DNA of 64,000 nucleotides from Planctomycetota bacterium (GTDB lineage Bacteria > Planctomycetota > JAJSAM01): assembly GCA_024274785.1 (NCBI GenBank), contig JAJSAM010000035.1:85613-149612 (forward strand). Direction: 5' to 3'. The position numbers and the translations under genes are program-made. Each line of letters starts with the position of its first letter. Within the stretch, counting starts at the first letter, position 1. Positions 3,169-64,000 of this stretch are shown here, in pieces. The notes beneath the pieces were generated by a model. That model was not told where the DNA came from. It saw only the letters and a list, made by a program, of their open reading frames with translations, and searched no databases.

Positions 3169-3172
3169 GGCA

Positions 3173-11625: not shown

Positions 11626-11679
11626 AATACCCCTAGCGTTGGCAATGAGTTGGATGAACGCGATGCGAGGGGCCTGATC

Positions 11680-24278: not shown

Positions 24279-24492
24279 GACGGGCCAAGGTTACCATCCA
24301 GAGCCGGGGAACCGGCATCGCCCCCCGGGCGGGGCTCGCCCGGCCGACAAGCAACCCGACGCGCACTGTTACCTCTCGAGCAGGCAAAGCCACTCCCCTG
24401 AAGCAGGTGGAAACGGTGGCGGTCTCCTGCGAGACTGCTCTGTGGCTGAGCCGGATGGACTTGCGGAGGGAAGGGATGGGAGGATCCTGGAA

Positions 24493-32330: not shown

Positions 32331-32350
32331 TCACGTTACTCCGCCCCTGT

Positions 32351-32379
32351 GCAATCTGAATTCCACATATTCAGATTGC
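32351..32379 (+). terminator. Perfect 11-bp AT-rich inverted repeat (hairpin) downstream of the LOR gene
   Basis: GCAATCTGAAT-tccacat-ATTCAGATTGC. No U-tract follows. Lies at the left edge of the lower-GC island. Confidence 0.3.
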
Positions 32380-32389
32380 GGAGAGCCAT

Positions 32390-32497
32390 CATCAAATCGC
32401 CGTGCACGCCGCCGTCACAGAAATACATCTGACGCTCCCGGACCGCCAGCACGGTCGCCCAGAGATCGACCCTCCATTGCGGCTGGGCCGCGCTGTG
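32390..32497 (-). repeat. Dispersed intergenic repeat, copy D (reverse orientation)
   Basis: Reverse complement of ...gccagcacggtcgcccagagatcgaccctccattgcggctgggccgcgctgtg matches copies A-C, including the tail (gtcacagaaatacatctgacgctcccggaccgcc vs rc of copy A). Confidence 0.8.
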
Positions 32498-32623
32498 GCG
32501 GTAGGAATCTGATCACGGCGAGCTTCACCCGGTCGGTCCCAACTCCGGGTCTTGGTCGCATCCATACGATCGCTTGACACGGTCCCATGCTGTGCTCCAA
32601 TGAGAGATGAGAGGAGCATTGGG

Positions 32624-33649: not shown

Positions 33650-33798
33650 TTACACACTACGGTTCAGGGATCGGCCACCAGTGGGTCGTTAAGGTGTGCG
33701 GACCGGCGGGAATCCCAGTCCACATCACCGTTTCGTTCCGCAATTCGTTCGGACTATCGACAGCCTCTTGGGCGATCATTATTAAACCAGAGTGCTGA
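33346..33798 (+). CDS. Secreted cysteine-rich small protein (150 aa)
   Basis: Strong RBS (AAAGGAGGAAGGGATG). Signal peptide (MGVSVKSVLLAALLYVCIFALAQQVEA). Mature part has 8 Cys (TECTG...GSCPSNEDWCCTFARF...SCDP...VCGP...PEC). Lower-GC region. Confidence 0.65.
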   Translation: MGVSVKSVLLAALLYVCIFALAQQVEATECTGVGQNRKSSLDQFGSCPSNEDWCCTFARFEGLGVPDSASCDPVERSATLDNPDPNQNSIDPMLSNEVPTVITHYGSGIGHQWVVKVCGPAGIPVHITVSFRNSFGLSTASWAIIIKPEC

Positions 33799-33864
33799 GC
33801 ATTTTCATGGCGATTGAAGATGTGCCATTCCCCGGCCATTTGCATTCCCGGAAGGTCGCCTCAA

Positions 33865-36339: not shown

Positions 36340-36788
36340 GCAGGAGCATCCACCTGGCGATTTCGTTGACCCAGAGAGTGGTTGGAGTCCTTCTGATCTA
36401 CTCGGGTGTCGCCAAGACGGTCCTGCCGGAAGCCAGGTGTGGATTCGGCGCGGTCGTCCGCTCGCTCAATCTTCCGGACTCCATGCGGGCCGTGCTGCAG
36501 AGCGGACTCGGGCCCCTCGAGGTTGCCGTCGGGATCTGCCTGCTGGTCGGTTTCCTGCGCAAGGTCCATCTGAGTGTGAGCGTCTGCCTCATGGCCGCCT
36601 TCGTGGGCGCTACTGCCATGCAGAGCGCTTCGGGCTTCCAGGACAGGGCGTGCGGGTGCGGGCTGGGCATTGCGGTGAGTGTCGGCGCAGCTCTGGTACG
36701 CAACTCGATCCTGCTTGCGCTACTCTGCGGCTGCCTGCTGCACGAGTTCTGGGCGGGGAGGTCTCCGGTGCAGCTTTCAGGATCTTGA
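36330..36788 (+). CDS. MauE/DoxX-family membrane protein
   Basis: About 150 aa, 4 predicted TM. LTQRVVGVLLIYSGVAKTVLPE matches the MauE/DoxX N-terminal helix pattern. Overlaps the stop of the upstream gene (ATGA at 36336). Confidence 0.55.
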   Translation: MRMSRSIHLAISLTQRVVGVLLIYSGVAKTVLPEARCGFGAVVRSLNLPDSMRAVLQSGLGPLEVAVGICLLVGFLRKVHLSVSVCLMAAFVGATAMQSASGFQDRACGCGLGIAVSVGAALVRNSILLALLCGCLLHEFWAGRSPVQLSGS

Positions 36789-48886: not shown

Positions 48887-48990
48887 ACAGCGCGGCCCTG
48901 CCGCGATGGAGGGTCGATCTCCGGGCGACCGTGCTGGCAGTCCGGGAACGTCACGCAGGTTCTGCGAGTGCCGCGAAGGTTTTGAACGTC
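48887..48990 (+). repeat. Dispersed intergenic repeat, copy C
   Basis: acagcgcggccctgccgcgATGGAGGGTCGAtCTCCGGGCGACCGTGCTGGCAGTCCGGgaaCGTCAcgcaggttctgcgagtgccgcgaaggttttgaacgtc: full-length match to copy A. Confidence 0.85.
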
Positions 48991-49031
48991 CATGGTACAG
49001 AGGCCAGCCGAGCCAGGGGAGCGGGAGCGAG

Positions 49032-50048
49032 TTGAGGACGAATTGCCCTGACACCGTATCGGTCATCCTGTGCATCGCCGCCATTCTGCTCGCGTCCTGC
49101 AACGGTCCCCCGATATCGGATTCTCCGGTGAGTCTCGACGGTGTCGCGACCTGGGCCATCCAGCTCCAGGGGCTCGACCGCGCCGGCGCTATCGACCGCC
49201 TGGCCCGGGCGGACGTCGACCTGGTGGTGATCGAATCGATGAACACCATGCGTGACCACGCTGACTTCCCCATCGTCCCCGTGGTCCGCCAGGTGAAGGC
49301 CACTCCGGGCGCCATGCTTCCGCGAAAGCTCTGCCTGGCCTATCTGAACGTCGGGCAGGCCGAGGACTACCGGGAGTACTGGGGCGAAGACTGGGTTTCA
49401 CCACGCTCCGATGCGCCGGGGTCTCCCGCGTTCCTGCTCGCCGCGGACCCGGATGGGTGGGCCGGCAACTGGCCGGTGGCGTACTGGGACCGGAGGTGGC
49501 GGGCGATTCTCTTCGGTTCCCCGGAGGCGCTCCTCGAACGCGCGATCGAGCAAGGTTTCGACGGGGTGATGCTCGACTGGGTGGCGGGTTGGTCGCGCCC
49601 GCTCGTCTCCGCCGCCGCCCGAGAGGCCGGAGTCGATCCGGCGGCGGCGATGGCCGACCTGATTCGCGAACTCGGCCGCCGCGCGCGGACCCTGCGGCCG
49701 GGCTTCCTGCTGCTCCTGAACGACGGCGCCCCCCTGCTCGAGCGCATCCCGTCCCTTTCGGAGTGCGTGGACGGAGTCGTACGGGAATCGGTCTGGTTCA
49801 CCGGCCGGTCATCGGACCGTTGGGATGACCCCGCCAACGCGGATGTCCGAGTCGCGGACCCGGAACCCGTGATCCGAAGCCTGGCCCACGCGCGGCGTCT
49901 CGGCGTGCGGGTCTTCACTCTCGACTATGCATCCCGACCTTCACGGCGCGAGGAAGCGGTCCGGCGCGCTCATCGAAACGGCTTCGTGCCCTTCGTCAGC
50001 CGCACTCCCCTGGACCGCCTGCCAAAGTACGGGGCCGCGCAAGAATAA
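49032..50048 (+). CDS. GH114-like (endo-alpha-1,4-polygalactosaminidase / TM1410-family TIM-barrel) lipoprotein
   Basis: Lipobox (VILCIAAILLASC). WAIQLQGLD...DLVVIE...CLAYLNVGQAEDYREYW...GFDGVMLDW matches the GH114/TM1410 pattern (the PelA hydrolase-domain family). TTG start 49032 inferred. Convergent with pelG. Confidence 0.55.
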   Translation: MRTNCPDTVSVILCIAAILLASCNGPPISDSPVSLDGVATWAIQLQGLDRAGAIDRLARADVDLVVIESMNTMRDHADFPIVPVVRQVKATPGAMLPRKLCLAYLNVGQAEDYREYWGEDWVSPRSDAPGSPAFLLAADPDGWAGNWPVAYWDRRWRAILFGSPEALLERAIEQGFDGVMLDWVAGWSRPLVSAAAREAGVDPAAAMADLIRELGRRARTLRPGFLLLLNDGAPLLERIPSLSECVDGVVRESVWFTGRSSDRWDDPANADVRVADPEPVIRSLAHARRLGVRVFTLDYASRPSRREEAVRRAHRNGFVPFVSRTPLDRLPKYGAAQE

Positions 50049-50195: not shown

Positions 50196-51572
50196 CTAGT
50201 CCGAGGTGATGGGCTGTCCGGTGAACACGTAGTAGTCGAGGTGCCGGGTAGCTCGAGCCAACAGTACGTATCCGGTGATCAGCGAGAGCATGGCGGCAAT
50301 TGCATAGCCGAAACCGTAGGTCGCCGGACCGAGCCACACACTCGCCAGGGCCAGGCCGCCGTTCAGGACCAGGAAGAGGAGTGACGTGGTGAACGCCTGC
50401 CAGCGCAGGTCGAAGTATAGCTGCATCAGAATGGTGATGAGCAGCATCACGTGGCAGAAAGCACCGATACAGACCGCACGAAAGACCCTCACCGCCGTCG
50501 GGGGCAAACCCAGCTTCTCCAGCAGAACGGGAGCGAAGATCAGGGCCAGGGCCGTGATGGCTCCCTGGATGCGCAGGAGCCGGATCATGCCCTCCTTCAG
50601 GTTGCCGAGCATGGCCATCCGCTTCTGTTCGATGATCGCGAGCGGACGTCCGCCGAGGATCGCACCGAAGTACGATCGATAGCAATCGTAGAAGCCGGTC
50701 TCCACCCGCACCAGGTTCACTGCCAGAGCGGGGATGACCGTCAGGTAGGCGAGGAAGCAGCAGGTGTCGTAGAGCGGATGGTAGAGGATCAACGGGTGCG
50801 GGCCGATGCCGTCCGCCACCCAGAAGATGATCTTGTCGATCCAGATCCCGGCGTTGTAGGCCACCCCCACGACCAGCAGGCGCGGAAACTCGGAAACGCT
50901 CGCCAGAACCGCGAAATCGCGGTCTCCTTCGGTGTGGAGGCCCCGGACGATGGCTCGCACCAGGTAGACCAGGGCCAACCCCTGTCCGGCGGTGTAGGCG
51001 GCCATCAGGCCGAGGGTGCCACAGGGTCTCTCGAGGGCGGCGACCAGGCCGAAGACCAGGAGAGCGCCCAGGCCGTAGCCTTTCAGCACCGTGTCGAACT
51101 CCCGCGTCACACCGAGCCAGATCAGTGCCAGCCAGGTGATCCCGAGCACCATGAACAGCGTCACCGCGACGAGAGAGAGGGCCGCCGGAAGACCGGCCGC
51201 GATGCAGAAGATGCTCCCCACCACGAGGTGCGCGACTCCGACGACGAGAAAGCACGCATTGAAGGCCGGGAGGATCTCCCGGTACTGTTTGGTGTAGAGC
51301 CAGTCCGCGACCTTGCGCGTCACCGTGAGTTGCAGCACGCCGACCAGGATCAGGCTGAACGCGAAGGCGTAGGTCACCATGGCCCGGAAGAGATCGTAGG
51401 CCGGGGCGGTGGTCAGGTACGGCGCGAATCCGCTCAGAATCCCCAGCGTGAAGATGGTCACGAGCCAGGGACCTGAGGAGATCAGTCCGGCGCAGGCGTA
51501 CCCGCGGACCCGCGAGATCAGTCCTCGCCGCGTATCGATCATCCGCCGGAGTTCGAACCCGATGCCGGCCAT
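50196..51572 (-). CDS. pelG: Pel polysaccharide exporter PelG (MATE-like, 12 TM)
   Basis: 458 aa. N-terminus MAGIGFELRRMI matches the PelG signature start. Polytopic membrane protein. Confidence 0.85.
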   Translation of the reverse strand: MAGIGFELRRMIDTRRGLISRVRGYACAGLISSGPWLVTIFTLGILSGFAPYLTTAPAYDLFRAMVTYAFAFSLILVGVLQLTVTRKVADWLYTKQYREILPAFNACFLVVGVAHLVVGSIFCIAAGLPAALSLVAVTLFMVLGITWLALIWLGVTREFDTVLKGYGLGALLVFGLVAALERPCGTLGLMAAYTAGQGLALVYLVRAIVRGLHTEGDRDFAVLASVSEFPRLLVVGVAYNAGIWIDKIIFWVADGIGPHPLILYHPLYDTCCFLAYLTVIPALAVNLVRVETGFYDCYRSYFGAILGGRPLAIIEQKRMAMLGNLKEGMIRLLRIQGAITALALIFAPVLLEKLGLPPTAVRVFRAVCIGAFCHVMLLITILMQLYFDLRWQAFTTSLLFLVLNGGLALASVWLGPATYGFGYAIAAMLSLITGYVLLARATRHLDYYVFTGQPITSD

Positions 51573-51573
51573 G

Positions 51574-53079
51574 TCAGACTCCCACTCCGGTGGACGTCAG
51601 GTGTTTGGTGTAGATCTCCCGATAGGCGCCGATCATGTCCTCCTGGTCGTAGAAGCGATTCACGCGCTTCATCAGATTGCGGCCGAGCTGCTTGCGGCGC
51701 TCCGGATCCCGGTAGAGCTTCAAGAGCGCCTCCGCCGTCGCCCCCGGACTCGCGATCGGAGTGATGAGCCCGCCTCCGCCGATCATCTTGTCCTCGGGCA
51801 GGCGTCCGAAGAGCAGCTCGGAGCAGGAGCCCACATCGGTCGCGACATTCGCCAGACCCATGGCCCCCGCTTCGAGGATCACCAGCGGCTGGGCCTCCGA
51901 GATGCTGGTCAACACCACCACATCGACCTTCGGCACTTCCTCGAGGACGTTGACGGCTCCCTCGAGGATCACGTTGTCGTCGAGATCGAGCAGGGAGATC
52001 AGCTCGTGGCATTCCCGGGCATAATCGGGATCCTCATCCGCGGGCCCCATGACCCGCACCAGGACGTCCGGGACCTCCTCCGCCACGAGGCGGCTGGCGT
52101 AGATCAGGGTCTTGACGTCCTTGATGGGACAGACGCGGCCCACGAAACCGATGGTGTATCGATCATTCTCCGGCCGGCCGAAGTACGCTTTGGAAGCCTC
52201 TCCGAATCGTTTCAGGTCGATGCCGTTCGGCACGACATGCACCTTCTGGCGGTCGGCGCCGTCCCTCACCTGCATCTCCCGGTTCCCCTCGTAGAGGGTG
52301 AAGATCTCATCCGCCAGCTAGTAGCAGACCCCGGCCATCATCTGGAACTGGCGGACCCAGAACCGCTTGAAGTAGGGAGCGGTGCGCTCCGCGACGAGTT
52401 CCCCCGATTCCCAGTCCTCGATCCAATCCGCGCGGTTGATCTCGATGCGCCGTTCCTTGGTGTAGATCCCGTGCTCGGTCAGCAGCATCGGCCTCTGATG
52501 ACGGACCTTGCACGCCGCGGCGAGGATTCCGGCGTAGCCCGTGGAGATGGTGTGGTAGAGACCCGCCGCGGGCGCATTTGCGGCCAGCACGTTGAAGAGC
52601 GGCATATTCGAGTAGCGCCAGGTCCAGAAGAAGTTCAGGAAGCTCTCCTCCTCCGCCTCCGCCCGGTACGTATCCACCAGCACTTCCCAGCTCTCCCGGG
52701 TCTGGAGGAGGTCGTAGGAGTTCATCCCCGCGCCGCCGTCCTCCTCGAGCGATCGGATGAAGTCGGCGAACGCTCCGATCCTGCCCGCGCACATGTCCTC
52801 GACCAGGTCCCGGAACCGATCCACCTTCTCCCGGTTGTCGCCCTCTCCCCGATTCTCGGACATCGTGTACTCGTGCAGGCAGACCTCCTCCAACCCCACG
52901 ACGTTCTTCGGCATTTCGTAGGCCGGCCCCTTCGGGTAGTACCCGCGCTTGGGGCTGACGTGCATGATCGTGAAGGTGAGCTCCGGCAGTTGCCGGATGA
53001 TCTGGTGCACCCAGGAGGAAACTCCTCCCTTCACGAACGGATAGGTGCCCTCCAGGAGCAGGCAGATATCGGGGGTCAT
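51574..53079 (-). CDS. pelF: Pel glycosyltransferase PelF (GT4), interrupted by an in-frame TAG at 52318-52320 (possible pseudogene)
   Basis: N-terminal part (52318..53079) and GT4 C-terminal part (51574..52275, ...FVGRVCPIKDV...EAQPLVILEAGAMG) are in the same frame. Reading through gives ...FQMMAGVCY*LADEIFTLYEGNREMQVRD... continuous with PelF. Confidence 0.8.
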
Positions 53080-54188
53080 GGTCTCGCTCCCGCGGGCACG
53101 CCGTCTCCGGCCCGCTCTGTTTCTTCCGTCACCTCGTCCCCGTCCCCGTCTTCACCTTCATCCTCGCCCGTGTCCCGCAACGCCTCGAGCCAGCCGGGCA
53201 GCTCGACCCCCCGCTCGGCGAGTTGTTCCGCCTCCTCGCGGGCGTGTGCGAAGTCCCGATCGACAAAGGCGATCTCGGCCGTGGTCAGGTGGATCTCCGT
53301 CATCGTCCGGATCTCCTCCGGGAGAGAGAGGAGACAGTCGTAGGCCTTCGCGAACTCGCCGATCTTCGCGTGTGACCTGGCTTCGAGCGTGGCGCCCTCG
53401 ACGCTCTCCGGGTCAATCTTCCTCGCGTCACCGGCGGAACCGGCCGCCGCCCTCAGGTGGAATCCGGCCGTCGCCTGATCCAGGACGCCGCTGCTGGCCA
53501 GATCGAAATGGGCCCCGGCCAGCTCGAGATGGGAATCCGCGTCTCCCGGGGCTTCCCGCACCCGTACCCGTCCTCCGGCCACCCGGTCCTCGTGTTCTCG
53601 CACCAGCCGCTCCAGCTCGCCGTAGGCATACAGGCGCACTTCCTGGTCATCATCCTCGAGGCAGTTTCGAATCAGCATCAGGTGGTGCGGTTGCCCCAGC
53701 TCCGCCAAACGGACCAGGGCGCTCCGCTTCTGGTCGGTGCCGCCGTGCCGCAGCACATCCCGGTAACTCTCCAGGTCCAGCTTGCGGGCGAGATCCCGAT
53801 CGAAGTTCCCGGTGAACAGACTCCGCTCGTACTCCGGAATCCTGGGCTTGACATGGTTCTTGTAACGCTCCATGGCCTGGTGGGAGTTCTCCACTCCTTC
53901 CCCCCGGCCCTTGCGGGGCAGTCCAACCGACAAGGCCGGGCCCATGAAGGGCAGGAGCACCGCGATGAGCATCATGGCGTCGCGTTCCGCCGGAGCCAGC
54001 GGTTCGCCACGACGGTGGCGGGCCGCGAAAGTCGCGGGCAGGACGGCCGTGAAATGGCAGAGGAGCCCCCCCATGAACGCGAGGAAACCCGTGCCGAAGA
54101 ACATGAAGCGTGCCCCGGCCGCACCAAGGGCCATGGACAGAAGCGTCAGAGCGATGACGATCAGCCCTCTCCTCGACAATCTCTTCAT
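53076..54188 (-). CDS. pelE: Pel biosynthesis inner-membrane TPR protein PelE
   Basis: 370 aa. Two N-terminal TM segments then TPR-like helical region. Positioned between pelD and pelF. Confidence 0.7.
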   Translation of the reverse strand: MKRLSRRGLIVIALTLLSMALGAAGARFMFFGTGFLAFMGGLLCHFTAVLPATFAARHRRGEPLAPAERDAMMLIAVLLPFMGPALSVGLPRKGRGEGVENSHQAMERYKNHVKPRIPEYERSLFTGNFDRDLARKLDLESYRDVLRHGGTDQKRSALVRLAELGQPHHLMLIRNCLEDDDQEVRLYAYGELERLVREHEDRVAGGRVRVREAPGDADSHLELAGAHFDLASSGVLDQATAGFHLRAAAGSAGDARKIDPESVEGATLEARSHAKIGEFAKAYDCLLSLPEEIRTMTEIHLTTAEIAFVDRDFAHAREEAEQLAERGVELPGWLEALRDTGEDEGEDGDGDEVTEETERAGDGVPAGARP

Positions 54189-56098
54189 CGATAGCCTCCC
54201 GCCACCGGGATGTCCCGCAGCGGCCGAATGTCGGAAAGTGCGTCGATAAACGGCACGTAGTAGGGGAAGTCGGGACCGAAGCTCAGGATCTCGGTCGCCA
54301 ACGGGCCATAGGGCGGATCCGCCTCCGCTTCACCGACCAGGGCCAGCAGACGTTCGGAGATCTCTGTTCCCTGTTCCGGATCGGTCTTGGGGAGAACGGC
54401 CACCACGTGCCCCTCTCCCAGGGCGAAGAGGCTGTCGGTCTGTCGCAGCCCACCCTCCGTCGCCTGCCGGATGTGGAATGCCAGAAGTCCCGGCTCGACT
54501 CCGACGGTCTCTTCGCTCCGGATGGAGATCACCTGCAAGGGGTATTCGTTTCGCATCGCGAGGCCGATCTCCCCGATCAGAGTTCGGAGGAACTCCCGGA
54601 TCGTGCCGATGTGGCGGCCCGCCGGAAGCTCGAAGGCCCGGCCGGGGCCGCAGACGCCTTCGCCGCCCGCAAACAGTCCGGTCATCTGCTCCACCAGGCT
54701 GTCCGGGTCCGGCGTTCCGGGGGCCGGCTCGAAAACGTCGACCTCGATCTCCCCCGGGACCTCCCACTCCTCCCGCTGTTCGGGCACCAGGCGTCGCCGC
54801 AGGGCCTGAGCCCCGTCGGCCGGCGTACCGGGCAGGACCATCAGGTAGCAGCCGGCCTGGGGGAAGCGATAGAGAGCGTCGGAGGCGCGCGTGCGCGTGG
54901 CGAAGCGGTCCACCATGAACTCGTCCACCTCCGCCATGCGCGGAGCGGGGAGGCCGACGGTCCCCCGGATGCGGATCGCGAGGAAGGACAACGGCAACCC
55001 ATGGCGGACCGTTCGGTCGTATTCCAACCCGAGACGCACGCCCAGATCCCCGGCGCTGCCGATCCACTTCGGAGAGGGTTCGAGGTGCGAGAACTCATCG
55101 CTTCCACCCGAGACCGGCGCCCCGTCCTGGTAGGACCGCGTGAGCAGCGCGGAAGTCCACCTGGCAATCGCCTTGAAGGTGCGGATCGTGGATCCGTTGA
55201 GGACCGAAGCCGGAACATCATCCAGACAGAGCAGTGCATCGATGACACCCGGAGCGCCGGTCAGGGGAGTCACGACGAGGGGCCCATTCTCGGGCGGTTC
55301 CTCGGCGGACGAGAATCCGTTGATCTCACGTCCCTCGCGGATCGCGCGTTGTACGTATTCGCTTTCTCGCGAAACCTCGAGCCGGGCCTCCGTCTCCCCG
55401 GCGGGCCAGCCCCGCTGGCACAGAAGCTCGAGCTGTCCATCCAGCCGGGGCATCAGGACCGAGGCGGACGCGCCGCAGTACTCCTCCACCAGTTCGAGGG
55501 CGATCTCACGGATCTCCGCGGGCGAGGCCAGCTCGGTCCGGCTGGCGGTCTCGATCAGGTTGCCGAAGTGACTGTTCTGATCCACGAGCCGGCGCTCCAG
55601 GACCCGGCCGGCCGCGGAGAGCACATCCCGCTGCTGCCGGACCCGTTCGTATTCGGTGCCGGCCTTGGCCAGTTCATCGGTGAGCACTGAAAGCCGATCC
55701 CGCGCGATGTCCCTGAACTCCCCGATCAGGAAGCTCACCGCAAAGAACAGGATCGGCTCCAGCATGATCTTGAAAGTCAGGAGCTCGCGAAGATCCTCGA
55801 TGCCTGATTCCCGCTGCGCGCCGAAAACGACAAGCAGAGTGGCGCAGGCCGCGGCGGTGAGGCCGGCGGTGAGACCCCGACCCGCGGCCATGGGCAGGAT
55901 CACCAGCCAGTAGGGGTGGGGATGCACGCCGAAGGCGCCGATGCGGCCGTCTCCGGTGAAGAACTCGATGAGAACGATCACTCCGTAGAGCGCGGCGACT
56001 TCGGCAAGGACGAGGAACCACCCTCCCCGGCGGCTCATGGCCTCGGGCGGGCTTTCGTTCCCGGCGGTTCCCTGCTTGTCTTGCACCGAAGTTACCAT
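54185..56098 (-). CDS. pelD: Pel c-di-GMP receptor PelD-like (TM region, GAF and degenerate GGDEF-like domains)
   Basis: 637 aa (longer than P. aeruginosa PelD). 4 N-terminal TM segments, coiled coil, then cytosolic domains. Operon context. Confidence 0.65.
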   Translation of the reverse strand: MVTSVQDKQGTAGNESPPEAMSRRGGWFLVLAEVAALYGVIVLIEFFTGDGRIGAFGVHPHPYWLVILPMAAGRGLTAGLTAAACATLLVVFGAQRESGIEDLRELLTFKIMLEPILFFAVSFLIGEFRDIARDRLSVLTDELAKAGTEYERVRQQRDVLSAAGRVLERRLVDQNSHFGNLIETASRTELASPAEIREIALELVEEYCGASASVLMPRLDGQLELLCQRGWPAGETEARLEVSRESEYVQRAIREGREINGFSSAEEPPENGPLVVTPLTGAPGVIDALLCLDDVPASVLNGSTIRTFKAIARWTSALLTRSYQDGAPVSGGSDEFSHLEPSPKWIGSAGDLGVRLGLEYDRTVRHGLPLSFLAIRIRGTVGLPAPRMAEVDEFMVDRFATRTRASDALYRFPQAGCYLMVLPGTPADGAQALRRRLVPEQREEWEVPGEIEVDVFEPAPGTPDPDSLVEQMTGLFAGGEGVCGPGRAFELPAGRHIGTIREFLRTLIGEIGLAMRNEYPLQVISIRSEETVGVEPGLLAFHIRQATEGGLRQTDSLFALGEGHVVAVLPKTDPEQGTEISERLLALVGEAEADPPYGPLATEILSFGPDFPYYVPFIDALSDIRPLRDIPVAGGYR

Positions 56099-59000
56099 CT
56101 CAATGTGAATCTCAGCTCGAGGCTGGATGCTCCTTTCCCCACGTCCGCTCTTCCGAACGCATAGCCGTAGGTCCCACGGAATCCGACCTCGAAGTCGGGA
56201 CCGGGCCGCCAGGAGAGCCCCAGCAGGGCGCCGCCGAAGGGGCCGGGGTCGGCCAGGTCGGTGCCGAGATAGGTCTCCACCTCGACGACCAGCCCCGGAC
56301 CCAGGCTCTCCTCGAGGCGGCCGGTCGCGGTCACGTAGTGCGCCACATCCCGAATGGGCAGAGAGTCGGCGAGTTCCGCGCCGTCGAGGAGCGCCATGCC
56401 CGTGTATCCCAGCCAGGCGCCGATGCGGGGGCCTCGCGATTCGGGAGGCTCACCGGCGACCGTCGATCCGGCTCGCGCCGGCTCGGCTCGGCGGGCCAGG
56501 AGCCCTTCCTGCACCTGCGGCCCCTCGCCACGGAACCACGTACCGAAGGACCCCTCGAGGATGACCATGTCGTCGGAGAGCCGGCCATCCCGTGCCGTTT
56601 CGATGGAGAGGTTCGAGTATCGCAATCGGCCATAGGCCCACCAGTCGGCCTCCTTGCCCGACCGGTAGCCGGTGAGTTCAACTCCGCTGCTGCGTCCGGC
56701 CAGACCCGCCGCCGCCGCGGGATAGGCCAGGGTTTCCAGAACATGCAACCGCAGCTCGTATCGGGCGTACGGGTTCTGCTCCCGCTTCGACACCTCGATC
56801 CAGCCGCCCAGAGGATCGCCGCCCGGGCGGTCCGGATAGAAGTCCGTCCCCAGAGCCAGCTCCCAGTCTCGGCTGAGACGCCGGGACACCGACAGCCCGA
56901 GGCTGGTCAGTTCGGTGTCGAGAAGCTCGAGACCAGATCGGTAGGCCTGGGCCCGTCCCCGGTACGACCCACGCTCCAGGTAGCCGGAAACCCTCGTCTC
57001 CTCCACATCGAGGAGGAGAGAGCCCGAAAGGAGCATCCGGGTGATCCGGTCATCCGCCGCGGTCTCCGTACGGACCAGGAGATTCGCCACCGGAGACGCA
57101 AGCTGGTCGCAAAGGACCCTGCGGGTCTCCCGTGCGGTTCGGTTTTCGGGTTGGAGCGAGAGCAACTCGTCGAATGCGTCCCGCGCCCGGGCCAGGCGCC
57201 CCAGGCCCAGGAACGCTTCGGCACTGGACGCGGCATAGCCGGGATCCTCGCCGTAGAGTTCGATGGCCCGTTCGATGCCGGCGAGGGCTTCTTCATAACG
57301 CCCCTCGAGAATCTTCAACTGCGCGTCCATCCGCAGGGCGCGGGGACTCTCCGCTCCGAGCAACCGGGCCTGTTCCACGACCCGCCTCGCCGCCTCCCCG
57401 CGGTTGAGAATCACCAGGGCGTCGGCGTAGTCGAGCAGCAGATCCTGGTTTCCGGGAACGAGCGCGAGCAGGCGGTCGAAGATCGCCCGGGATTCTTCCT
57501 CCCGACCGAAACGAGCCAGGATCCTGGCCTCCATGGAGCTTCGCGGAACGCTGGCGAAGCCGGCCTCCCGCAACAACACCAGAGCCTGCTCATGCACGGT
57601 CCGGCCCAGATCCTCCTGCCGGCAGGACCAGTAGGCCTCGCCGAGGTAGAAGAGAAGTTCTCCCTCACCGTCCCCTCCCACCGCCAGGGCCCGCTCGAAG
57701 CTGACGATGGCGCCATAGGGGTCGTTGCTCCAGGAGGCGATCTGTCCGATCCTGGTCCAGGATTTCGCCTCTTCGGGATTCTACTCGGCCAGGGACTCGT
57801 AGAGCACCAGCGACAGATCCAGCCAACCTGCCGCGAAGAACCGGTCCGCGAGCCAGGGGACCCAGTCGTTCTTCACATCCGGCCCTTCGAATTCTCCGAG
57901 CGCGACCGGCGCGGGCCTCTCGTAAAGGGCGGGGAAACGCTGCATGAGATCCGCAGCGATCGCTTCGTAGCCCGGATAGCGGTCCATTCCCGCGACCACC
58001 GCCAGGATCTCCGCCGCCTCCTTCGCATCCAGTTCGGGAGATTTCGAGAGCAGGGTGGCCTTGTCGAGGAGCCCTTCGATTCCGGCGCCGGCGTATCCCT
58101 TCAGGCCGCGGAAGAAGAGCAGCGGGTCTTTCGCCCGTTCGACCCTCCTGACCATCAGGGTTCGCACCTGGTCGATTCGCCCGAGAGAGATGCAGAGGGC
58201 CATCGCCTCGGCTTCCAGCTCCGGATCCGGATCCGTTTGCAGCCGCAGGAGCAGGATTTCCGCCAGTTCATCCTGCCGGTTCGCCCGTTTGAGCAGGTCG
58301 TACCGGCGATCGTCGTAGCCGCCCTCCGGCCAGCGCTTCGCGAGATTTTTCAGTTCGGCCAGCGCCGCGTCCACCTGCAGATCCTGGAGGTAGAACTCCA
58401 CGAGCCGTTCGCGCCAGGGACGTGGGTCGTCGGCGACGGTGGAGGCTTCCTCGAAGAGCTCGGCGGCCCGTTCGAGATCCCCTCCCGACAGCGCCAGGTC
58501 CGCCGCCTCTCCGAGACCAGTGGCGTCCCCGGCGGCGCGGGCCAGCTCCGCGACGTGCAGCGACGCTTCGTCGGGCCGACCGAGGTAGCGATACAGTTCG
58601 ATCAGGCGCCGGCGCACCGTGAGCGGCTCTTCCTCGTCCTCGAGCACCCCCTCCAGAGCCTCCAGCTCCTCTTCGTACCGTGACAGCCACGCGGCGATCT
58701 CGGCCCGGCGCTTCTGCACGGTGATGTCGCCGGCGCCGGCCCGGGCGGCGGCGGAGAGCACCAGCAGCGCCCCCTCGCGGAGGCCGGCATCGAGACAACC
58801 CTCCGAGAGGGCGAGAGCGCTCTCGGACGAGGTCGGATCGGCTTCGAAAGCACGGAGCAGCCATCGCATCCGGGCTCGCGGCCGGTAGGCCAGGCGGAAG
58901 TGCTCGGCCAGGATCAGACCGTCTTCGGGATCCACGGCCCCGGCCTGGCCGCCCGCCGAAACCATCGCCACCGCCGCCAGGCGATCAGGAGCGCAATCGG

Positions 59001-59565
59001 CCCCGCAGAGCGCTCCGAGATCGACCACCTTCCGGCTCTTCCCTCCCAGGTGCAGGAAGAACGCCTCCAACTCCCTTGCCCCTCGTTCGTTCATCTCGAT
59101 GGTGCGCAACAGGCGAACCGCCTCGTGTGGCCCCATCGTCCCGCCCCGGTCGTCGGCGAGGGTGGCGAGGGCGCTTCGGCGTGCGACCAGTGCGGGGATG
59201 GTCGCACCGATCAACTCCAGCCTCTTTGCGGCTTCCGCCGGTGAGTAGAGCTCCTCTTCCAGGAGGAAGGCCACGCGGGCCAGGTTCGCCGGATCGCGCA
59301 CCTGCACCTGTTTCGCCCGGAGCAGATCGAGCGCCAGTCTCGCATCTCCGAGATTCCGAGCCTGCTCGATCAGGAATCTGCTCGCCATCGACGGATCCGT
59401 CGCACTCCCCTCCGACGACGGCTCGCTCGGAATGAAGGGTTCGGATCCCGCGGCGGGCAGCGAACTCAGGATCTGCCCGGGGGGCTCGTAGCAGACCGCG
59501 ATCAGGGTGAGCGCCGAACTGGCGATGAGCGTGAAGACGATGATGCCGCTCCAGGAAACCGTCAT
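56092..59565 (-). CDS. pelB: Pel outer-membrane export/scaffold protein PelB (N-terminal TPR array plus C-terminal beta-barrel), with an in-frame TAG at 57781-57783
   Basis: Two track ORFs (57781..59565 TPR part with signal/TM; 56092..57681 TPR plus C-terminal beta-barrel ending ...LELRFTLRW) share one frame. Read-through: ...LYESLAE*NPEEAKSWTRIGQIASWSNDPYGAIVSFERALAVGG... Confidence 0.8.
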
Positions 59566-61676
59566 GGCCGCCTCACTTCCACCCGGTTCGGTCCGGCCGG
59601 GGGCAGCTCGAGGCGAAACTCGCCGTTCTCATCGGCGGCGACTTCCTGCTGCACTGAATCGAGGCGGAGGATCAAGGGCCCGTCCGGTGGGAAGCCGGCA
59701 AAGACGATCAGTCGAGGGGCGAGGGAGGTGGAGGTCACCGCCACACCGGTCGCATCGCGCGAGGCTTTCGTGAGAACGTGGTTCGCCTCGAGGACATGCG
59801 GCGCCGGCGTGGCCTTTTTCACGAGCGTCACCTCCGCATCCGGCTTTGCCAGGTGAAGGTGAAGCGATCCCTGAAGGACGCGCGCGCCGAGGATCCCCGG
59901 GCTGCGGCTCCAGTCGATTTCTCCGGCGGGATCGTCGAGTCGAACGGTGCGGCAGTCGCCGAAATCGCGGAAGGCCCAACCGTTCGGGGTCCGGAGGATT
60001 CGGGCGGTGCCGAGGGCGGAACGAACCGATCGAATGTAGGTGGAAGCGAAGACCGGGGCGGTCGGCTCCGACTTGCCCCAGCGATCGAGCAGCCGCCGGA
60101 AGACCCGGATCCGCCCGCGTCGCTCCACGCTGAAGAGGTGGACGTAGACGTTTGCGGGTTTGAGGATCTTCCCGCGTCCGGTCCGCTCGATGGTGGTGTC
60201 CACGTGGCGGAACGAGAGAGGGTTCGTTGTGAAATAGCCATCGTAGACGACTTCGTTCGACGACCCGCAGTAGACCTGCACGTGTCCGTTGACGATCCGG
60301 CCCAGGGGCGGAACGTAGCTGACGGAGTCGTTCAGGGCATCCCACCGATAGATCCCACCGTTCAGATTCAGGAGTCCGAGCCGGTCGGCCTCGGCAATGG
60401 CGTCCACCTGGGGGCACGCATTGCCGCTCCAGAGCATGACCTCACACCGCTTGGTGGGAGGAAGCAGGTAGTCATTGATGAACCGGATGCTGTCCCGCAC
60501 TTCCCCGACCAGGGTCTTGTCGAAGTGCTTCGGACCAGGGAAGACGAAAGTCGCCGAACTCCGCTCCGGCGATTCGCCCACCATTCCCCAGTTCAGCGGG
60601 TGGCGGACCGAGTGGGAAGCGGCTTCGACCCGGGGATGACGGAGCAGGCGGGATGCCGCTTCGATCATCGGGGTGCGGACCGTCGGCTTCAGGTCGTCCG
60701 TGATGGAGTTGGCGATGATGCTGACGGTGAACGGGAGTTCGTACTTCTCTATGATCTCATCGAGGAACACCTCCCCGCAATTGGCGCCGCGCCGGATTGT
60801 GGACAGGCTTTCGAATCCGTCTCCGTCCACGTGGCAGAAGAACATCCGGCGCCCGTTGATGACGCAAGGTTGGGGCGCCGGTACTCCGGTGAGACCGAGT
60901 GCGGTTCGCAGGAAAGCGAACAGGTCGAGGTACAACCGTCGACCGCCTTCCCCGGCTCCCTCGCGATAGACGTAGGGAGCCAGGGCGATCCCCCCCCAGG
61001 GACCGGTCACGATGGGCGTACGTGCACGCCCCGGATCGGCCGAGCTCCGGGTGGAGATCCAGGCGGTGTTTGCGCCAGACTCGATCCAGGGCCCACGGTG
61101 GATGGAATGCCCGGTGGGATCGGCCTCGATGGCGCAGGGAAGTCGGTCTGAGAGAGTCACCTTCACGCCGAGTGGTATGTCGACGTAGGCAGGATCGAAA
61201 CCCAGACCGAAGGAGGCGAGCCAGCGGGCCAGTCGGCCCGTGTTCTCGCGACGGTTGACAAAACGGAGGGGACCCCATTCGCCGAAGTGCACGAAGCGGA
61301 TGCCGCCTTCACGGCGGCGGGCTTCGAGCCAGGGCCACAGCCACTCGACCGGATCATCAGTGTACTCGAATGCAGTGAGTACCGCTCTGAGGTCGGTGAG
61401 CAGGCGTGCGGGAGGAGGTCCATCGCGCACATCGTGGCGTAGGACGACCATACCCAGGTAGTTCAGCGGAAGCTCGTAGAGCTGGTGGACGGGATCCTCG
61501 ATGCCGAGGGATTGGCTGCCTGCGCCGCCGTCATAGAGGGCGAGCACGTGTCGTGCGACGGGCTCCTGACCTTCGCTCCCGGAGCCGGCCGGTGATCGGC
61601 CGACCAGCATTCCGAGAAGAGCGATTGTCAGCAGGAGCACCAGCCGCTTTGCAGCCGGGGTCCTTCCATCCACCAT
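59562..61676 (-). CDS. PelA-like secreted polysaccharide-modifying protein (putative deacetylase-type domain; lacks recognisable GH114 hydrolase domain)
   Basis: 704 aa, signal peptide. Central ...VINGRRMFFCHVDGDGFESL... segment resembling polysaccharide deacetylase/PelA-type folds. First gene of the pel operon (ATGA overlap with pelB). Domain assignment by eye only. Confidence 0.45.
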   Translation of the reverse strand: MVDGRTPAAKRLVLLLTIALLGMLVGRSPAGSGSEGQEPVARHVLALYDGGAGSQSLGIEDPVHQLYELPLNYLGMVVLRHDVRDGPPPARLLTDLRAVLTAFEYTDDPVEWLWPWLEARRREGGIRFVHFGEWGPLRFVNRRENTGRLARWLASFGLGFDPAYVDIPLGVKVTLSDRLPCAIEADPTGHSIHRGPWIESGANTAWISTRSSADPGRARTPIVTGPWGGIALAPYVYREGAGEGGRRLYLDLFAFLRTALGLTGVPAPQPCVINGRRMFFCHVDGDGFESLSTIRRGANCGEVFLDEIIEKYELPFTVSIIANSITDDLKPTVRTPMIEAASRLLRHPRVEAASHSVRHPLNWGMVGESPERSSATFVFPGPKHFDKTLVGEVRDSIRFINDYLLPPTKRCEVMLWSGNACPQVDAIAEADRLGLLNLNGGIYRWDALNDSVSYVPPLGRIVNGHVQVYCGSSNEVVYDGYFTTNPLSFRHVDTTIERTGRGKILKPANVYVHLFSVERRGRIRVFRRLLDRWGKSEPTAPVFASTYIRSVRSALGTARILRTPNGWAFRDFGDCRTVRLDDPAGEIDWSRSPGILGARVLQGSLHLHLAKPDAEVTLVKKATPAPHVLEANHVLTKASRDATGVAVTSTSLAPRLIVFAGFPPDGPLILRLDSVQQEVAADENGEFRLELPPAGPNRVEVRRP

Positions 61677-61761: not shown

Positions 61762-63126
61762 CTACGCGTTTATGGATTTCGACAGGGCCTTCCGGGAATT
61801 GGCCACTCCGGCGAGGATCTCTCTCATGGCCACGGCCAACTTCAGACTGTCGTGTCGGACCAGCGAGGCTTCCGAAGCCACATCCGCCCGTACGATCCTG
61901 GCGCGTGTGAGTTCAGAGAGCCGCTCTCCCGCCCGCTCGATGACCGGAAACTGACCCCGCTTCGAGTAGTACCGCAGCGCATCCGCGGAGAAGTCCGTCA
62001 GCGAGGTGAGGATGAAGTCCAGGCAGTCTCCCCCCAGGTACCCGACCATCTCCCGCACGTGCTCGTAGACCGAGAATCCGCAGGTTTCGCCGGGTTCGGT
62101 CATCACGTTGCAGACGAAAACTTTCGCCGCCCTGCTCGACCGGATCGCCTCCGGGATGCCGCCGATGACCAGATTCGAGATCAAGCTGGTGAAGAGATCT
62201 CCGGGGCCGAGGACGATCAGTTCGGCATCGCCGAGCGCTCGAAGGGCGTCCTCATTCGCCACGGCCGGTGGAGCGCACCACAGGTGCTCGATGCGCCCGT
62301 CCCGATCTGCCGCCTCGTAAACGTCGATCCGGTTCTCACCCTCGATGGTTCTACCGTTTCCGAGACGCGCAAAGAGGGTCGTATCGGTGTCGGTCACGGG
62401 AATGACTTCCCCCTGGATGCTCAGGATCTCTCCGAGCGCTCCGACCGCCGCCGCCATGGACCCGCGCATTTCGGAGAGGGCGGTGAGAATCAGGTTCCCG
62501 AGGTTGTGGCCCTCGAGCTCCTCGCCGCGGACGAACCGGTATTGCATGAGCTGGTTCAGGAGGTGGGGCGCACCGGAAAGTGCGATCAGGCTGCGGCGCA
62601 CGTCGCCGGGCGGGAGAATGCCGAACCGATCCCGCAATCGACCGGTGGAACCTCCATCGTCACTCATGCTTACGATCGAGGAAAGATGCAGCCCGGGTAT
62701 GGTCTTCAGCCCCGAGAGGAGGGTGAAGAGACCCGTACCGCCGCCGAGGCACACCACCCGCGTCGGCTTCTTCAGGACCCGCACCATCTTTTCGACCAGG
62801 ACGCGTGGCTGAACCGGAACGGGCAGCACATCGACATTTCTGAGCTCCGCGGCCTCCATCTGGGTGCGCTGGCGATCTGAATGGGTGAGAACGATCGCCG
62901 GAGGCATCTCGACGGAACGCAGTCCGAAGATTCGTTGCAGAAGGTCCGGCGCGGTCGTGGGGGGAAGGTCGAAGTCGATGAGCACGAGATCGAACGGTCC
63001 CTGCATCAGGAGGTGGAAGGCGGTCAATCCGTCTTCCGCAACCGCGAAAGAAAACCCGAAACGGCTCGTGGACTCCCGGATCAGCGATCGGAGGGCCGCA
63101 TCGGCGGTGCCGAGGAGAATCTTCAT
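61762..63126 (-). CDS. Response-regulator receiver domain fused to YvcK/GlmR (UPF0052, CofD-like) gluconeogenesis-factor domain
   Basis: REC-like N-terminus (DLVLIDFDLP). YvcK signature (VVCLGGGTGLFTLLSGLK...IVSMSDDGGSTGRLR). ATGA overlap with the upstream kinase gene. Confidence 0.8.
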   Translation of the reverse strand: MKILLGTADAALRSLIRESTSRFGFSFAVAEDGLTAFHLLMQGPFDLVLIDFDLPPTTAPDLLQRIFGLRSVEMPPAIVLTHSDRQRTQMEAAELRNVDVLPVPVQPRVLVEKMVRVLKKPTRVVCLGGGTGLFTLLSGLKTIPGLHLSSIVSMSDDGGSTGRLRDRFGILPPGDVRRSLIALSGAPHLLNQLMQYRFVRGEELEGHNLGNLILTALSEMRGSMAAAVGALGEILSIQGEVIPVTDTDTTLFARLGNGRTIEGENRIDVYEAADRDGRIEHLWCAPPAVANEDALRALGDAELIVLGPGDLFTSLISNLVIGGIPEAIRSSRAAKVFVCNVMTEPGETCGFSVYEHVREMVGYLGGDCLDFILTSLTDFSADALRYYSKRGQFPVIERAGERLSELTRARIVRADVASEASLVRHDSLKLAVAMREILAGVANSRKALSKSINA

Positions 63127-63986
63127 TCGAACGACTCGTCCGGAAGCGATGCGAGGTCGTCCAGCAGTTCCCGGGCGTCCCGATGCCGCCCGCTCGGTTT
63201 CTTGGCCAGAAGCCGCATGATGATCCCGTTGAGCTCCTCCCCGAGGGTCGGAACCAGTTCCATCGGCGGCACCGGAGACTCCGTCAGGTGCTTCACCAGG
63301 ATCTCCGCGGGAGTGGAGCCTTCGAACGGCCGCCGCCCGGTGAGCGCGAAGTAGAGCGTCACTCCGAGCGAGTACAGGTCCGCCCGCTCATCGACCACTC
63401 CACCCGAGATCTGCTCCGGGGGGATGTAGAAGGGCGTGCCGGCGATTTCGGAGCGGCCGCTGGACTGCCGGGCTTCGCTCAATTGGAGCGCCAGGCCGAA
63501 GTCGGCGACCTTCACGCGGTTTCGGGAGTCGAGCAGCAGGTTCGAGGGCTTGATGTCACGGTGCACGATGCCGGCGTCATGAGCCTCAGCGAGCGCCGCG
63601 GCCGTCTCGATGGTGATCCGCACCGCTTCTCGTGCGTCGATTTGCCCCTCCCGCTCGATCAGATCCCCCACCGTCTCTCCCTCGACGTACTGCATGACGA
63701 GGTAGTAGAGCCCCCGCTCCTGGCCCACGTCGTGGACCGCCACCACACCGGGATGTTCCAGACAGGCCGCGGAACGGGCTTCCCGAAAGAACTGTTCCAC
63801 GTGCCGGCGCAGGTAGAAGAGCGCCGGATTCAGGATCTTGACCGCAACATCCTTTTGCAGGGCCAGGTGGCGGGCCAGGAAAACGGACCCCACCGCTCCC
63901 CTGCCCAGGCGCGCATCCATCAGGCATCCCGCCAACGTGCTCCCCAGAATCCCCCGCTCGAAGTTGAGCGTCTGCTCCGGTGTCAT
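63123..63986 (-). CDS. Hanks-type Ser/Thr protein kinase (kinase domain only, 287 aa)
   Basis: GRGAVGSVFLARH...VAVK (G-loop/VAIK), HRDIKPSNLLL, DFGLA, GTPFYIPPE motifs. Start ATG at 63984-63986 near window end. Confidence 0.8.
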   Translation of the reverse strand: MTPEQTLNFERGILGSTLAGCLMDARLGRGAVGSVFLARHLALQKDVAVKILNPALFYLRRHVEQFFREARSAACLEHPGVVAVHDVGQERGLYYLVMQYVEGETVGDLIEREGQIDAREAVRITIETAAALAEAHDAGIVHRDIKPSNLLLDSRNRVKVADFGLALQLSEARQSSGRSEIAGTPFYIPPEQISGGVVDERADLYSLGVTLYFALTGRRPFEGSTPAEILVKHLTESPVPPMELVPTLGEELNGIIMRLLAKKPSGRHRDARELLDDLASLPDESFE

Positions 63987-64000
63987 GCAGGGAGGGGGCA

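What the first reader, a model, noticed from the sequence alone, without database searches (positions are those of the whole stretch)
52318..57783. Two independent in-frame amber (TAG) codons interrupt pelF and pelB in otherwise intact frames
In both genes the sequence on either side of the TAG is continuous, conserved-looking protein in the same frame (PelF ...MMAGVCY*LADEIFTLYEG...; PelB ...LYESLAE*NPEEAKSW...). TAG is clearly used as a normal terminator elsewhere (pelG, ettA). So this is either a recently inactivated Pel operon (two nonsense mutations), a strain relying on amber suppression/read-through, or a consensus/assembly artefact. Two hits in one operon make chance sequencing error less likely.
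Basis: seen in the sequence. Interest (0 to 1): 0.6.

Follow-up and report, generated by a model that had tools for sequence, protein, structure and literature searches.

The report
Two amber nonsense mutations in Pel operon
Two genes of a biofilm-polysaccharide (Pel) operon in a Planctomycetota-like genome each carry one premature TAG stop where relatives have a glutamate codon; this looks like an ordinary recent loss-of-function, not a new genetic code or recoding signal.

Summary
On the minus strand, pelF (51574-53079) has an in-frame TAG at 52318-52320 (codon 254 of 502). The pelB-like gene (56092-59565) has one at 57781-57783 (codon 595 of 1158). Both frames keep a coding signature and continuous homology across the stop.

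All 63 PelF and 18-19 PelB orthologous loci I could fetch read through these positions. The closest relatives have Glu there: GAG in the 70%-identical PelB, GAA in the 84%-identical PelF. A single G>T change explains each stop, and GAG>TAG is the commonest possible nonsense change in this operon.

TAG terminates 13 other genes in the window. No other gene there shows an internal stop or frameshift. I found no tRNA, Rfam hit or unusual RNA structure.

PelF and PelB show no excess amino-acid change. The stops are therefore recent, or not real.

Best reading: recent nonsense mutations that inactivate or strongly down-tune Pel, like bcsQ TTG>TAG in E. coli K-12. A consensus error or dedicated amber suppression cannot be excluded without reads or the rest of the genome. 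The source genome is in none of the searchable collections.

Ordinary; low interest.

The parts
51574..53079 (-). pelF (GT4 glycosyltransferase), 501 codons plus stop, interrupted by TAG at codon 254
   Evidence: Translation. Pfam DUF3492 plus Glycos_transf_1. NCBIfam PelF equivalog matched in two contiguous halves. 84% identity to the intact 501-aa P0001.
52318..52320 (-). In-frame TAG in pelF, context TAC-TAG-CTG. Orthologues have Glu (most), or Ala/Arg/Ser/Gln; the closest has GAA.
   Evidence: In the AlphaFold model of the 84%-identical orthologue, residue 254 is at the end of helix 235-255. It lies before strands 258-261 and 280-282 of the N-terminal Rossmann domain, so it is not at a domain boundary. 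The change also creates one of only 6 CTAG sites in the window.
56092..59565 (-). pelB-like export protein, 1157 codons plus stop: N-terminal hydrophobic helix, TPR scaffold, predicted 16-strand C-terminal beta-barrel. Interrupted by TAG at codon 595.
   Evidence: Translation. TPR Pfam hits. Intact orthologues of 1157-1167 aa in syntenic operons. AF2 secondary structure of 13 helices plus 16 strands, with long fold matches only to BcsC and PelBC 9h80_M; the barrel part is low confidence.
57781..57783 (-). In-frame TAG in the pelB-like gene, context GAG-TAG-AAT, inside a TPR repeat just before the (D/N/E)P turn. The closest orthologue has GAG (Glu).
   Evidence: In L064 the flanking residues FFAAGWLDLSLVLYESLAE are identical and are followed by E (GAG).
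50196..51572 (-). pelG, intact, ends with a genuine TAG
   Evidence: Pfam PelG matches model 1-452 of 452. Colinear with L001 PelG.
53076..54188 (-). 370-aa protein in the pelE position, intact
   Evidence: Colinear with the L001 350-aa gene at 60% identity. No Pfam or NCBIfam hit.
54185..56098 (-). 637-aa protein in the pelD position (weak GAF hit), intact
   Evidence: 63% identity over its full length to the L001 642-aa gene.
59562..61676 (-). 704-aa protein in the pelA position, intact, no family hit
   Evidence: 59% identity over 1-704 to the L001 704-aa gene.
61762..63126 (-). Receiver-domain plus CofD/YvcK-like protein upstream of the operon. Its position is conserved in relatives.
48906..50048 (+). 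GH114-family glycoside hydrolase convergent with pelG. Its position is conserved in L001.

Best explanation
These are two genuine, evolutionarily very recent nonsense substitutions. Each is most simply GAG (Glu) to TAG, a G>T change on the coding strand and C>A on the window's plus strand, at 52320 and 57783. They sit in a seven-gene Pel polysaccharide operon of a Planctomycetota-like bacterium that is otherwise intact.

Translation of pelF would stop after residue 253. That is before the last strands of the N-terminal Rossmann domain and before the whole C-terminal sugar-nucleotide-binding domain. Translation of the pelB-like gene would stop after residue 594. This separates the N-terminal membrane and export helix from the remaining TPRs and the outer-membrane barrel.

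All pel genes are needed for Pel production in P. aeruginosa, so the operon is predicted to be non-functional. At most it would be expressed at the per-cent level through ordinary near-cognate read-through of UAG.

Shown here: the stops, their uniqueness to this genome, the sense codons in relatives, and the lack of other decay. Inferred: that the substitutions are real in the DNA, that they abolish Pel, and why they arose. Possible causes are relaxed or negative selection on matrix production, a redundant second pel locus, or a G:C>T:A-biased mutation process.
For: - **Both stops interrupt conserved sequence.** The PelF profile continues from model position 255 to 258 across the stop. PelB orthologues are continuous there, mostly with Glu.
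- **Nearest relatives have Glu codons.** L064 PelB (70% identity) has GAG after 19 identical residues. P0001/L001 PelF (84%) has GAA.
- **No relative carries a stop.** None of 63 PelF-bearing and 18-19 PelB-bearing loci has an in-frame stop. All 120 best PelF hits are single polypeptides covering 76-100% of the query, and none breaks at the TAG site.
- **The change is the expected one.** GAG>TAG is the single most frequent possible nonsense path in the operon, 206 of 1073 (19%). TAG accounts for 54-59% of all paths.
- **TAG is a real terminator here.** It ends 13 other genes, with no coding signal downstream of them.
- **The assembly does not look error-prone.** About 45 other genes have full-length domain matches and no frameshift or internal stop. 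All seven operon genes are colinear with the intact L001 operon.
- **The event is young.** PelF has no unique change at any otherwise invariant column and no rate excess in Tajima tests. PelB shows no significant excess either, before or after the stop.
- **The truncation point in PelF is inside a domain**.
- **Precedent exists.** E. coli K-12 bcsQ TTG>TAG abolishes cellulose, and ATCC 8739 has a bcsE nonsense mutation (PMC5944007). Loss-of-function in bcs genes is convergent in ST95 (PMC10881479). In-frame stops are widespread and short-lived polymorphisms in bacteria (PMC7918605). All seven pel genes are required for Pel (PMC10269871, PMC12141448).
Against: - No reads, no sister strain and no other part of the genome could be examined. 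The source is absent from every searchable collection. The reality of the two bases is therefore unverified.
- A second independent knockout in an operon that is already dead has no obvious selective value.
- Under pure neutral decay, indels should be at least as likely as a second nonsense change. With an assumed indel:substitution ratio of 0.1-0.2 (my own knowledge), a nonsense hit precedes any indel only about 13-24% of the time.
- The PelF ancestral codon is inferred from an 84% relative at a variable position (E/A/R/S/Q).
Confidence: 0.6

Rival explanations
1. Consensus, assembly or sequencing artefact. This includes a MAG or culture consensus that picked up minority alleles, or merged two sub-populations each carrying a different pel knockout. 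Under this reading the organism's real genes have sense codons, or no single cell carries both stops.
For: No independent copy of this genome exists in the collections to confirm the bases. Apart from the two stops the genes are indistinguishable from functional ones, which is what an error would look like. Both changes are the same type, C>A on the plus strand. That would suit a systematic or oxidative-damage artefact (own knowledge). A mixed population with alternative pel knockouts would explain why there are two hits.
Against: Only 2.95% of possible substitutions are nonsense. Two random substitution errors that both create stops would therefore imply dozens of other errors in the window. 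None is visible: PelF has no aberrant residue at invariant columns, and about 45 genes have no frameshift. The two sites share no sequence motif. Alternative alleles that each make up under 50% of a population should not both enter a majority consensus.
Confidence: 0.22
2. The stops are decoded. The organism has an amber suppressor tRNA, weak RF1 activity or another read-through mechanism. Full-length PelF and PelB would then be made at reduced, possibly regulated, levels ('pseudo-pseudogenes' or regulatory nonsense codons).
For: Both stops are UAG, the codon most often read through in Salmonella pseudogenes. There, C at positions -1 and +4 is enriched (PMC9122581), and the pelF site is C-UAG-C. 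Both positions tolerate several residues in orthologues. The downstream coding sequence is undecayed. Belinky et al. argue that many bacterial in-frame stops are not dead genes (PMC7918605).
Against: Neither stop is conserved in any relative. The window has no tRNA gene and no Rfam family. RNA downstream of the stops folds no better than shuffled sequence, with z = -0.76 and +0.23. TAG terminates 13 of 44 genes here, about 30%, with no downstream coding signal; the small sample shows no obvious short-range back-up stops. An efficient suppressor would therefore be costly. The fourth-base context of the internal TAGs does not differ from that of genuine terminators. Two leaky stops in one pathway would multiply the loss.
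Confidence: 0.08
3. Functional split genes. The fragments are translated separately, by re-initiation downstream of each TAG, and assemble into active PelF and PelB. A precedent is the two-polypeptide GT-B enzymes such as Alg13/Alg14 (own knowledge).
For: In-frame starts exist 14 codons after the pelF stop (ATG at 52275) and 33 codons after the pelB stop (GTG at 57681). The pelF stop is near the middle of a two-domain fold.
Against: No orthologue is split at either site. The pelF stop lies inside the N-terminal domain, and a restart at 52275 would delete strand 258-261 from both fragments. A PelB C-terminal fragment would lack the only N-terminal hydrophobic export segment, so the barrel could not reach the outer membrane (PMC12141448).
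Confidence: 0.02

Closest known systems
E. coli K-12 bcsQ TTG>TAG nonsense mutation, and bcsE nonsense in ATCC 8739 (PMC5944007); convergent bcs loss-of-function in ExPEC ST95 (PMC10881479)
   Same: A single-base amber or nonsense change sits in an otherwise intact synthase-dependent exopolysaccharide operon. Neighbouring genes are undecayed. Matrix polymer loss is predicted, possibly with polar effects.
   Different: There are two hits in one operon here, not one. The phylum (Planctomycetota-like) and the polymer (Pel) differ. No phenotype, repair experiment or strain phylogeny is available here.
Bacterial 'pseudo-pseudogenes' and short-lived in-frame stop polymorphisms (PMC9122581, PMC7918605)
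   Same: UAG in-frame stops in genes that otherwise look constrained. The pelF context C-UAG-C matches the context enriched among translated Salmonella pseudogenes.
   Different: No expression data are available here. The stops are not shared with any other genome, so the conservation argument used in those studies cannot be applied.
Programmed stop-codon recoding (pyrrolysine at UAG; genome-wide UAG reassignment in some phages and uncultured bacteria)
   Same: In-frame UAG within an otherwise open reading frame.
   Different: UAG is a normal terminator in this window (13 genes). The sites are not conserved. No recoding element, tRNA or Pyl-type gene context was seen. The affected proteins have ordinary Glu at these sites in relatives.

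Membership tests
PelF (NCBIfam NF038011, GT4 glycosyltransferase PelF) | Full-length match to the equivalog model above its cut-off (100 bits) | tested here: met
   The N fragment scores 230.8 bits over model 1-255 and the C fragment 256.6 bits over model 258-489. The sequence is 84% identical to the intact PelF P0001.
PelF (NCBIfam NF038011, GT4 glycosyltransferase PelF) | Single uninterrupted reading frame encoding both GT-B domains | tested here: not met
   TAG at codon 254 lies inside the N-terminal domain, at the end of helix 235-255 in the model of P0001. It is a PelF gene, but as written a pseudogene.
PelB (Pel export TPR-porin) | Position in a pel operon, between the pelA-position gene and the pelD/E/F/G genes | tested here: met
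   Gene order is 704 aa - 1157 aa - 637 aa - 370 aa - PelF - PelG. The same order occurs in L001 and L065.
PelB (Pel export TPR-porin) | N-terminal hydrophobic helix, long TPR scaffold and C-terminal 16-stranded beta-barrel (PMC12141448) | tested here: inconclusive
   A hydrophobic N-terminus is visible, and TPR hits. The AF2 model gives 13 helices plus 16 strands, but the barrel has pLDDT 25-60. The only matches spanning TPR plus barrel are BcsC (9b8a, 9b8h) and PelBC (9h80_M, TM 0.45 on the target), with high rmsd.
PelB (Pel export TPR-porin) | Detectable sequence homology to characterised P. aeruginosa PelB | tested here: not met
   phmmer and profile searches of PDB sequences return only generic TPR proteins. 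The barrel profile returns nothing significant. No NCBIfam PelB hit.
Programmed UAG read-through or recoding | The stop codon is conserved at the same position in orthologues | tested here: not met
   0 of 63 PelF and 0 of 18-19 PelB orthologous loci carry a stop there.
Programmed UAG read-through or recoding | Stimulatory downstream RNA structure or known recoding element | tested here: not met
   Fold z-scores are -0.76 and +0.23 against shuffles. No Rfam hit in the window.
Programmed UAG read-through or recoding | Cognate suppressor tRNA (anticodon CUA), Pyl machinery or altered RF1 in the genome | not testable with these tools
   The 64-kb window has no tRNA gene. The rest of the genome is not available.
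Genome-wide UAG reassignment | UAG is not used as a terminator, and many genes carry in-frame UAG | tested here: not met
   13 genes end in TAG at the ends of their homology, and only these 2 in-frame TAGs occur among about 47 genes.
Nonsense-mutation pseudogene | A stop one base away from the sense codon found in close relatives, interrupting a conserved domain | tested here: met
   GAG in L064 PelB and GAA (Glu) in L001 PelF. The interrupted domains are shown.
Nonsense-mutation pseudogene | The mutation is real in the DNA of the organism (read support) | not testable with these tools
   No reads and no second assembly of this organism are available.

The most novel reading that the evidence does not exclude
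The organism tolerates or exploits amber codons. A natural tRNA(CUA) suppressor or inefficient RF1 would let UAG act as a 'dimmer', so that PelF and PelB are made full-length at low, possibly condition-dependent, levels. That would be regulatory nonsense codons in a biofilm-matrix operon of a Planctomycetota bacterium.
Probability: 0.06. Interest if true: 0.6.

Novelty: new member of a known kind. Interest (0 to 1): 0.15.

Why it matters
If real, the two stops predict that this organism or population cannot make Pel from this locus. That matters for interpreting its aggregation and biofilm phenotype, and for annotation: the genes should be flagged as pseudogenes with an internal stop, not called as four separate ORFs. 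It is one more example of matrix-polysaccharide operons being switched off by point nonsense mutations. It does not bear on the genetic code unless suppression is shown.

Tried and rejected
- **Finding the source genome or a strain-level relative.** Exact-protein look-ups of PelG, the PelF N-fragment, AcrB and EttA found nothing. Scans of genome contigs and metagenome contigs found nothing closer than 84% for PelF and 70% for PelB. Read-level and sister-genome tests were therefore impossible.
- **Genome-wide TAG reassignment.** Rejected: TAG is a normal terminator in the window.
- **Other interrupted genes in the window.** A scan for stops flanked by 80 or more open codons gave many candidates. 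Only the two TAGs have a coding signature on both sides within one homologous protein. The others are adjacent genes or antisense shadows.
- **Read-through signals.** No downstream structure. The fourth-base context is no different from genuine TAG stops. No tRNA or Rfam hit.
- **Long-term relaxed selection.** Relative-rate tests are non-significant for the window lineage. dN/dS was not attempted because the nearest relatives are too divergent and synonymous sites would be saturated.
- **Natural split genes.** Rejected by orthologue lengths and by the domain position of the stops.
- **Sequence-level link of the 1157-aa protein to P. aeruginosa PelB.** Not found. Only a low-confidence fold resemblance.
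- **Literature on pel genes in Planctomycetes.** The search returned nothing.
Full report
**Observation**

The pel genes lie on the minus strand. Plus-strand CTA at 52318-52320 and at 57781-57783 reads TAG in the coding sense.

- Translating 51574-53079(-) gives a 501-residue PelF with one internal stop...QMMAGVCY*LADEIFTLYEG....
- Translating 56092-59565(-) gives a 1157-residue protein with one internal stop...LVLYESLAE*NPEEAKSW....
- On both sides of each stop the GC content per codon position has the coding signature of this genome, roughly 0.65 / 0.45 / 0.85.
- The NCBIfam PelF equivalog NF038011 matches the upstream ORF over model positions 1-255 and the downstream ORF over 258-489.
- Pfam DUF3492 is cut at position 243 of 268.

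**Context**

The operon runs from a receiver-CofD/YvcK-like gene (61762-63126) through six further genes:

| Gene | Coordinates |
|---|---|
| 704-aa protein (pelA position) | 59562-61676 |
| PelB-like protein | 56092-59565 |
| 637-aa protein with a weak GAF hit (pelD position) | 54185-56098 |
| 370-aa protein (pelE position) | 53076-54188 |
| PelF | 51574-53079 |
| PelG | 50196-51572 |

A GH114 hydrolase gene is convergent downstream. The same gene order, with every gene intact, occurs in the closest available contigs: L001 (JGI Ga0675941_001382, matching NCBI SWCD01004848) and L065 (Logan SRR8731049). All seven window genes are colinear with their L001 counterparts, with no frameshift. The best named PelF hits are all Planctomycetota MAGs.

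**What relatives have at the two sites**

- All 120 best PelF homologues are single polypeptides covering 76-100% of the query, and none breaks at the TAG site.
- In an 18-sequence alignment the TAG column holds E in most sequences, and otherwise A, R, S or Q. The 84%-identical P0001 has Glu encoded by GAA.
- For the PelB-like gene the closest relative is P0121/L064 (GCA_030596545.1), 70% identical and also 1157 aa. It is identical over the preceding residues FFAAGWLDLSLVLYESLAE and then has Glu encoded by GAG.
- Sixteen further orthologues are continuous there, with E, Q, R, L, A or G.
- A tblastn of all seven operon proteins against the 65 fetched loci found no in-frame stop in any PelF (63 loci) or PelB (18) orthologue. 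Two alignments contained a '*', but both were at the ends of other genes.

The stops are private to this genome.

**Is TAG special here?**

No.

- TAG ends 13 other genes in the window, TGA 27 and TAA 4. These TAGs sit at the ends of full-length domain matches, and no coding signal follows them.
- A six-frame scan for stops with 80 or more open codons on both sides found no other case with a coding signature on both sides within one protein.
- The remaining roughly 45 genes show full-length Pfam coverage and no frameshift.
- The window contains no tRNA gene and no Rfam family.
- The 123 nt starting at each internal TAG (the stop codon plus the following 120 nt) folds no better than shuffled sequence, with z = -0.76 and +0.23.
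- The base after the internal TAGs (C and A) is also common after the genuine TAG terminators.

**Is 'both TAG' informative?**

No.

- With this genome's codon usage, 54-59% of all possible one-base nonsense changes give TAG.
- GAG>TAG is the single commonest path: 206 of 1073 in the operon, or 19%.
- Only 2.95% of possible substitutions are nonsense.
- The operon holds about 21% of the window's coding bases, so co-location of two hits is only mildly surprising by itself.

**Age of the lesions**

- PelF has no private change at any column that is invariant in the other 17 sequences.
- Tajima relative-rate tests against eight outgroups show no excess on the window branch.
- The PelB-like gene shows no significant excess either, taken whole or split into the parts before and after the stop. 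P values are 0.06-1.0 with L064 as sister. Compared with L001 the window branch is the slower one.

So either the stops are very young, or they are not real, or they are decoded.

**Consequences if real**

- An AlphaFold model of the 84%-identical P0001 (mean pLDDT 83.9, same numbering) places residue 254 at the end of helix 235-255. It lies before strands 258-261 and 280-282 of the N-terminal Rossmann domain. The C-terminal domain begins at about residue 289. A 253-residue product lacks the whole donor-binding domain. A restart at the first in-frame ATG (52275) would drop strand 258-261 from both fragments.
- For the PelB-like protein, the stop separates the only N-terminal hydrophobic segment from the remaining TPRs and a predicted 16-strand barrel. 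The barrel model is of low confidence. Its only long fold matches are E. coli BcsC and the P. aeruginosa PelBC structure 9h80_M.
- In P. aeruginosa, PelB is an N-terminally anchored TPR scaffold plus a 16-stranded barrel, and all seven pel genes are required (PMC12141448, PMC10269871).
- The predicted outcome is loss of Pel from this locus. At best there would be per-cent-level expression by ordinary UAG read-through. Such read-through is documented for Salmonella pseudogenes, preferentially at UAG with C at positions -1 and +4 (PMC9122581). The pelF site has this C-UAG-C context.

**Weighing the explanations**

*Real recent nonsense mutations (0.6).* This fits everything seen and has close precedents:

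- bcsQ TTG>TAG in E. coli K-12 and bcsE nonsense in ATCC 8739 (PMC5944007);
- convergent bcs knockouts in ST95 (PMC10881479);
- the general finding that bacterial in-frame stops are common, short-lived polymorphisms (PMC7918605).

The awkward point is the second hit. Under neutral decay with an assumed indel:substitution ratio of 0.1-0.2 (my own knowledge), a nonsense change would precede any indel only about 13-24% of the time. Three things would ease this: a G:C>T:A-biased mutation process, since both changes are inferred G>T; a mixed population; or redundancy. One MAG (OFTM316) carries two pel loci, L009 and L018.

*Artefact or consensus mixture (about 0.22).* This cannot be excluded without reads. 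Random error is unlikely, because it would imply dozens of other substitutions and none is visible.

*Dedicated suppression or regulatory read-through (about 0.08).* Only generic context arguments support it. Non-conservation of the stops and the heavy use of TAG as a terminator argue against it.

*Functional split genes (about 0.02).* This is effectively refuted.

**Verdict**

This is an accurate observation of an ordinary phenomenon: a Pel operon carrying two private amber nonsense codons, to be annotated as pseudogenes pending read verification. I rate it as a new member of a known kind, with low interest.

Noticed in passing
window 1-64000; CTAG sites at 11633, 14960, 22013, 31835, 50196, 52318: The tetranucleotide CTAG is strongly depleted: 6 observed against 53.6 expected from trinucleotide frequencies (O/E 0.11). 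Other 4-base palindromes are near expectation. Three of the six coincide with TAG terminators of minus-strand genes. One is created by the pelF amber codon itself, which fits a recent change.
   Followed up: partly
window 61762-63998; L001 1-1353; L065 156-2602: A Ser/Thr protein kinase gene and a receiver-domain plus CofD/YvcK-like (UDP-GlcNAc-binding family) gene sit immediately upstream of the pel operon. The CofD-like gene is at the same position in L001 and L065, and the kinase also in L065. This may be a lineage-specific regulatory module for Pel.
   Followed up: no
window 53076-56098 and 59562-61676: No separate pelC-sized gene is present. The pelD-position protein is 637 aa with only a weak GAF hit. 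The pelA-position (704 aa) and pelE-position (370 aa) proteins have no Pfam or NCBIfam match, although they are conserved in relatives. A GH114 hydrolase is encoded separately at 48906-50048(+).
   Followed up: partly
window 56092-59565 (protein residues 1-571 versus 572-1157): Only the C-terminal half of the PelB-like protein, from about residue 572, aligns across Planctomycetota orthologues. The N-terminal half is poorly conserved: 51-60% identity even to the 70% relative, and undetectable in more distant ones. The TAG at residue 595 lies just inside the conserved half.
   Followed up: partly
L009 and L018 (both MAG OFTM316, JAJFFG01 contigs 28 and 50): One Planctomycetota MAG carries two distinct pel loci, each with PelF and PelB-like genes. 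pel redundancy within a genome is therefore possible in this group, assuming the binning is correct.
   Followed up: no
window 32000-36400: A lower-GC stretch (0.58-0.59 against about 0.66 elsewhere). It contains an 841-aa protein with CarboxypepD_reg-like repeats (33814-36339) and a roughly 1-kb region without a confident gene (32330-33346). It may be horizontally acquired.
   Followed up: no
window 23842-29676 (+): A very large (1944 aa) single ORF combines a DEAD/Helicase_C module (about residues 511-834) with a UvrD-type helicase module (about residues 1320-1794).
   Followed up: no
window 1621-4311 (-): A fused Memo-AMMECR1 protein (515 aa) lies next to a radical SAM protein (324 aa), the AmmeMemoRadiSam gene trio in fused form.
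   Followed up: no
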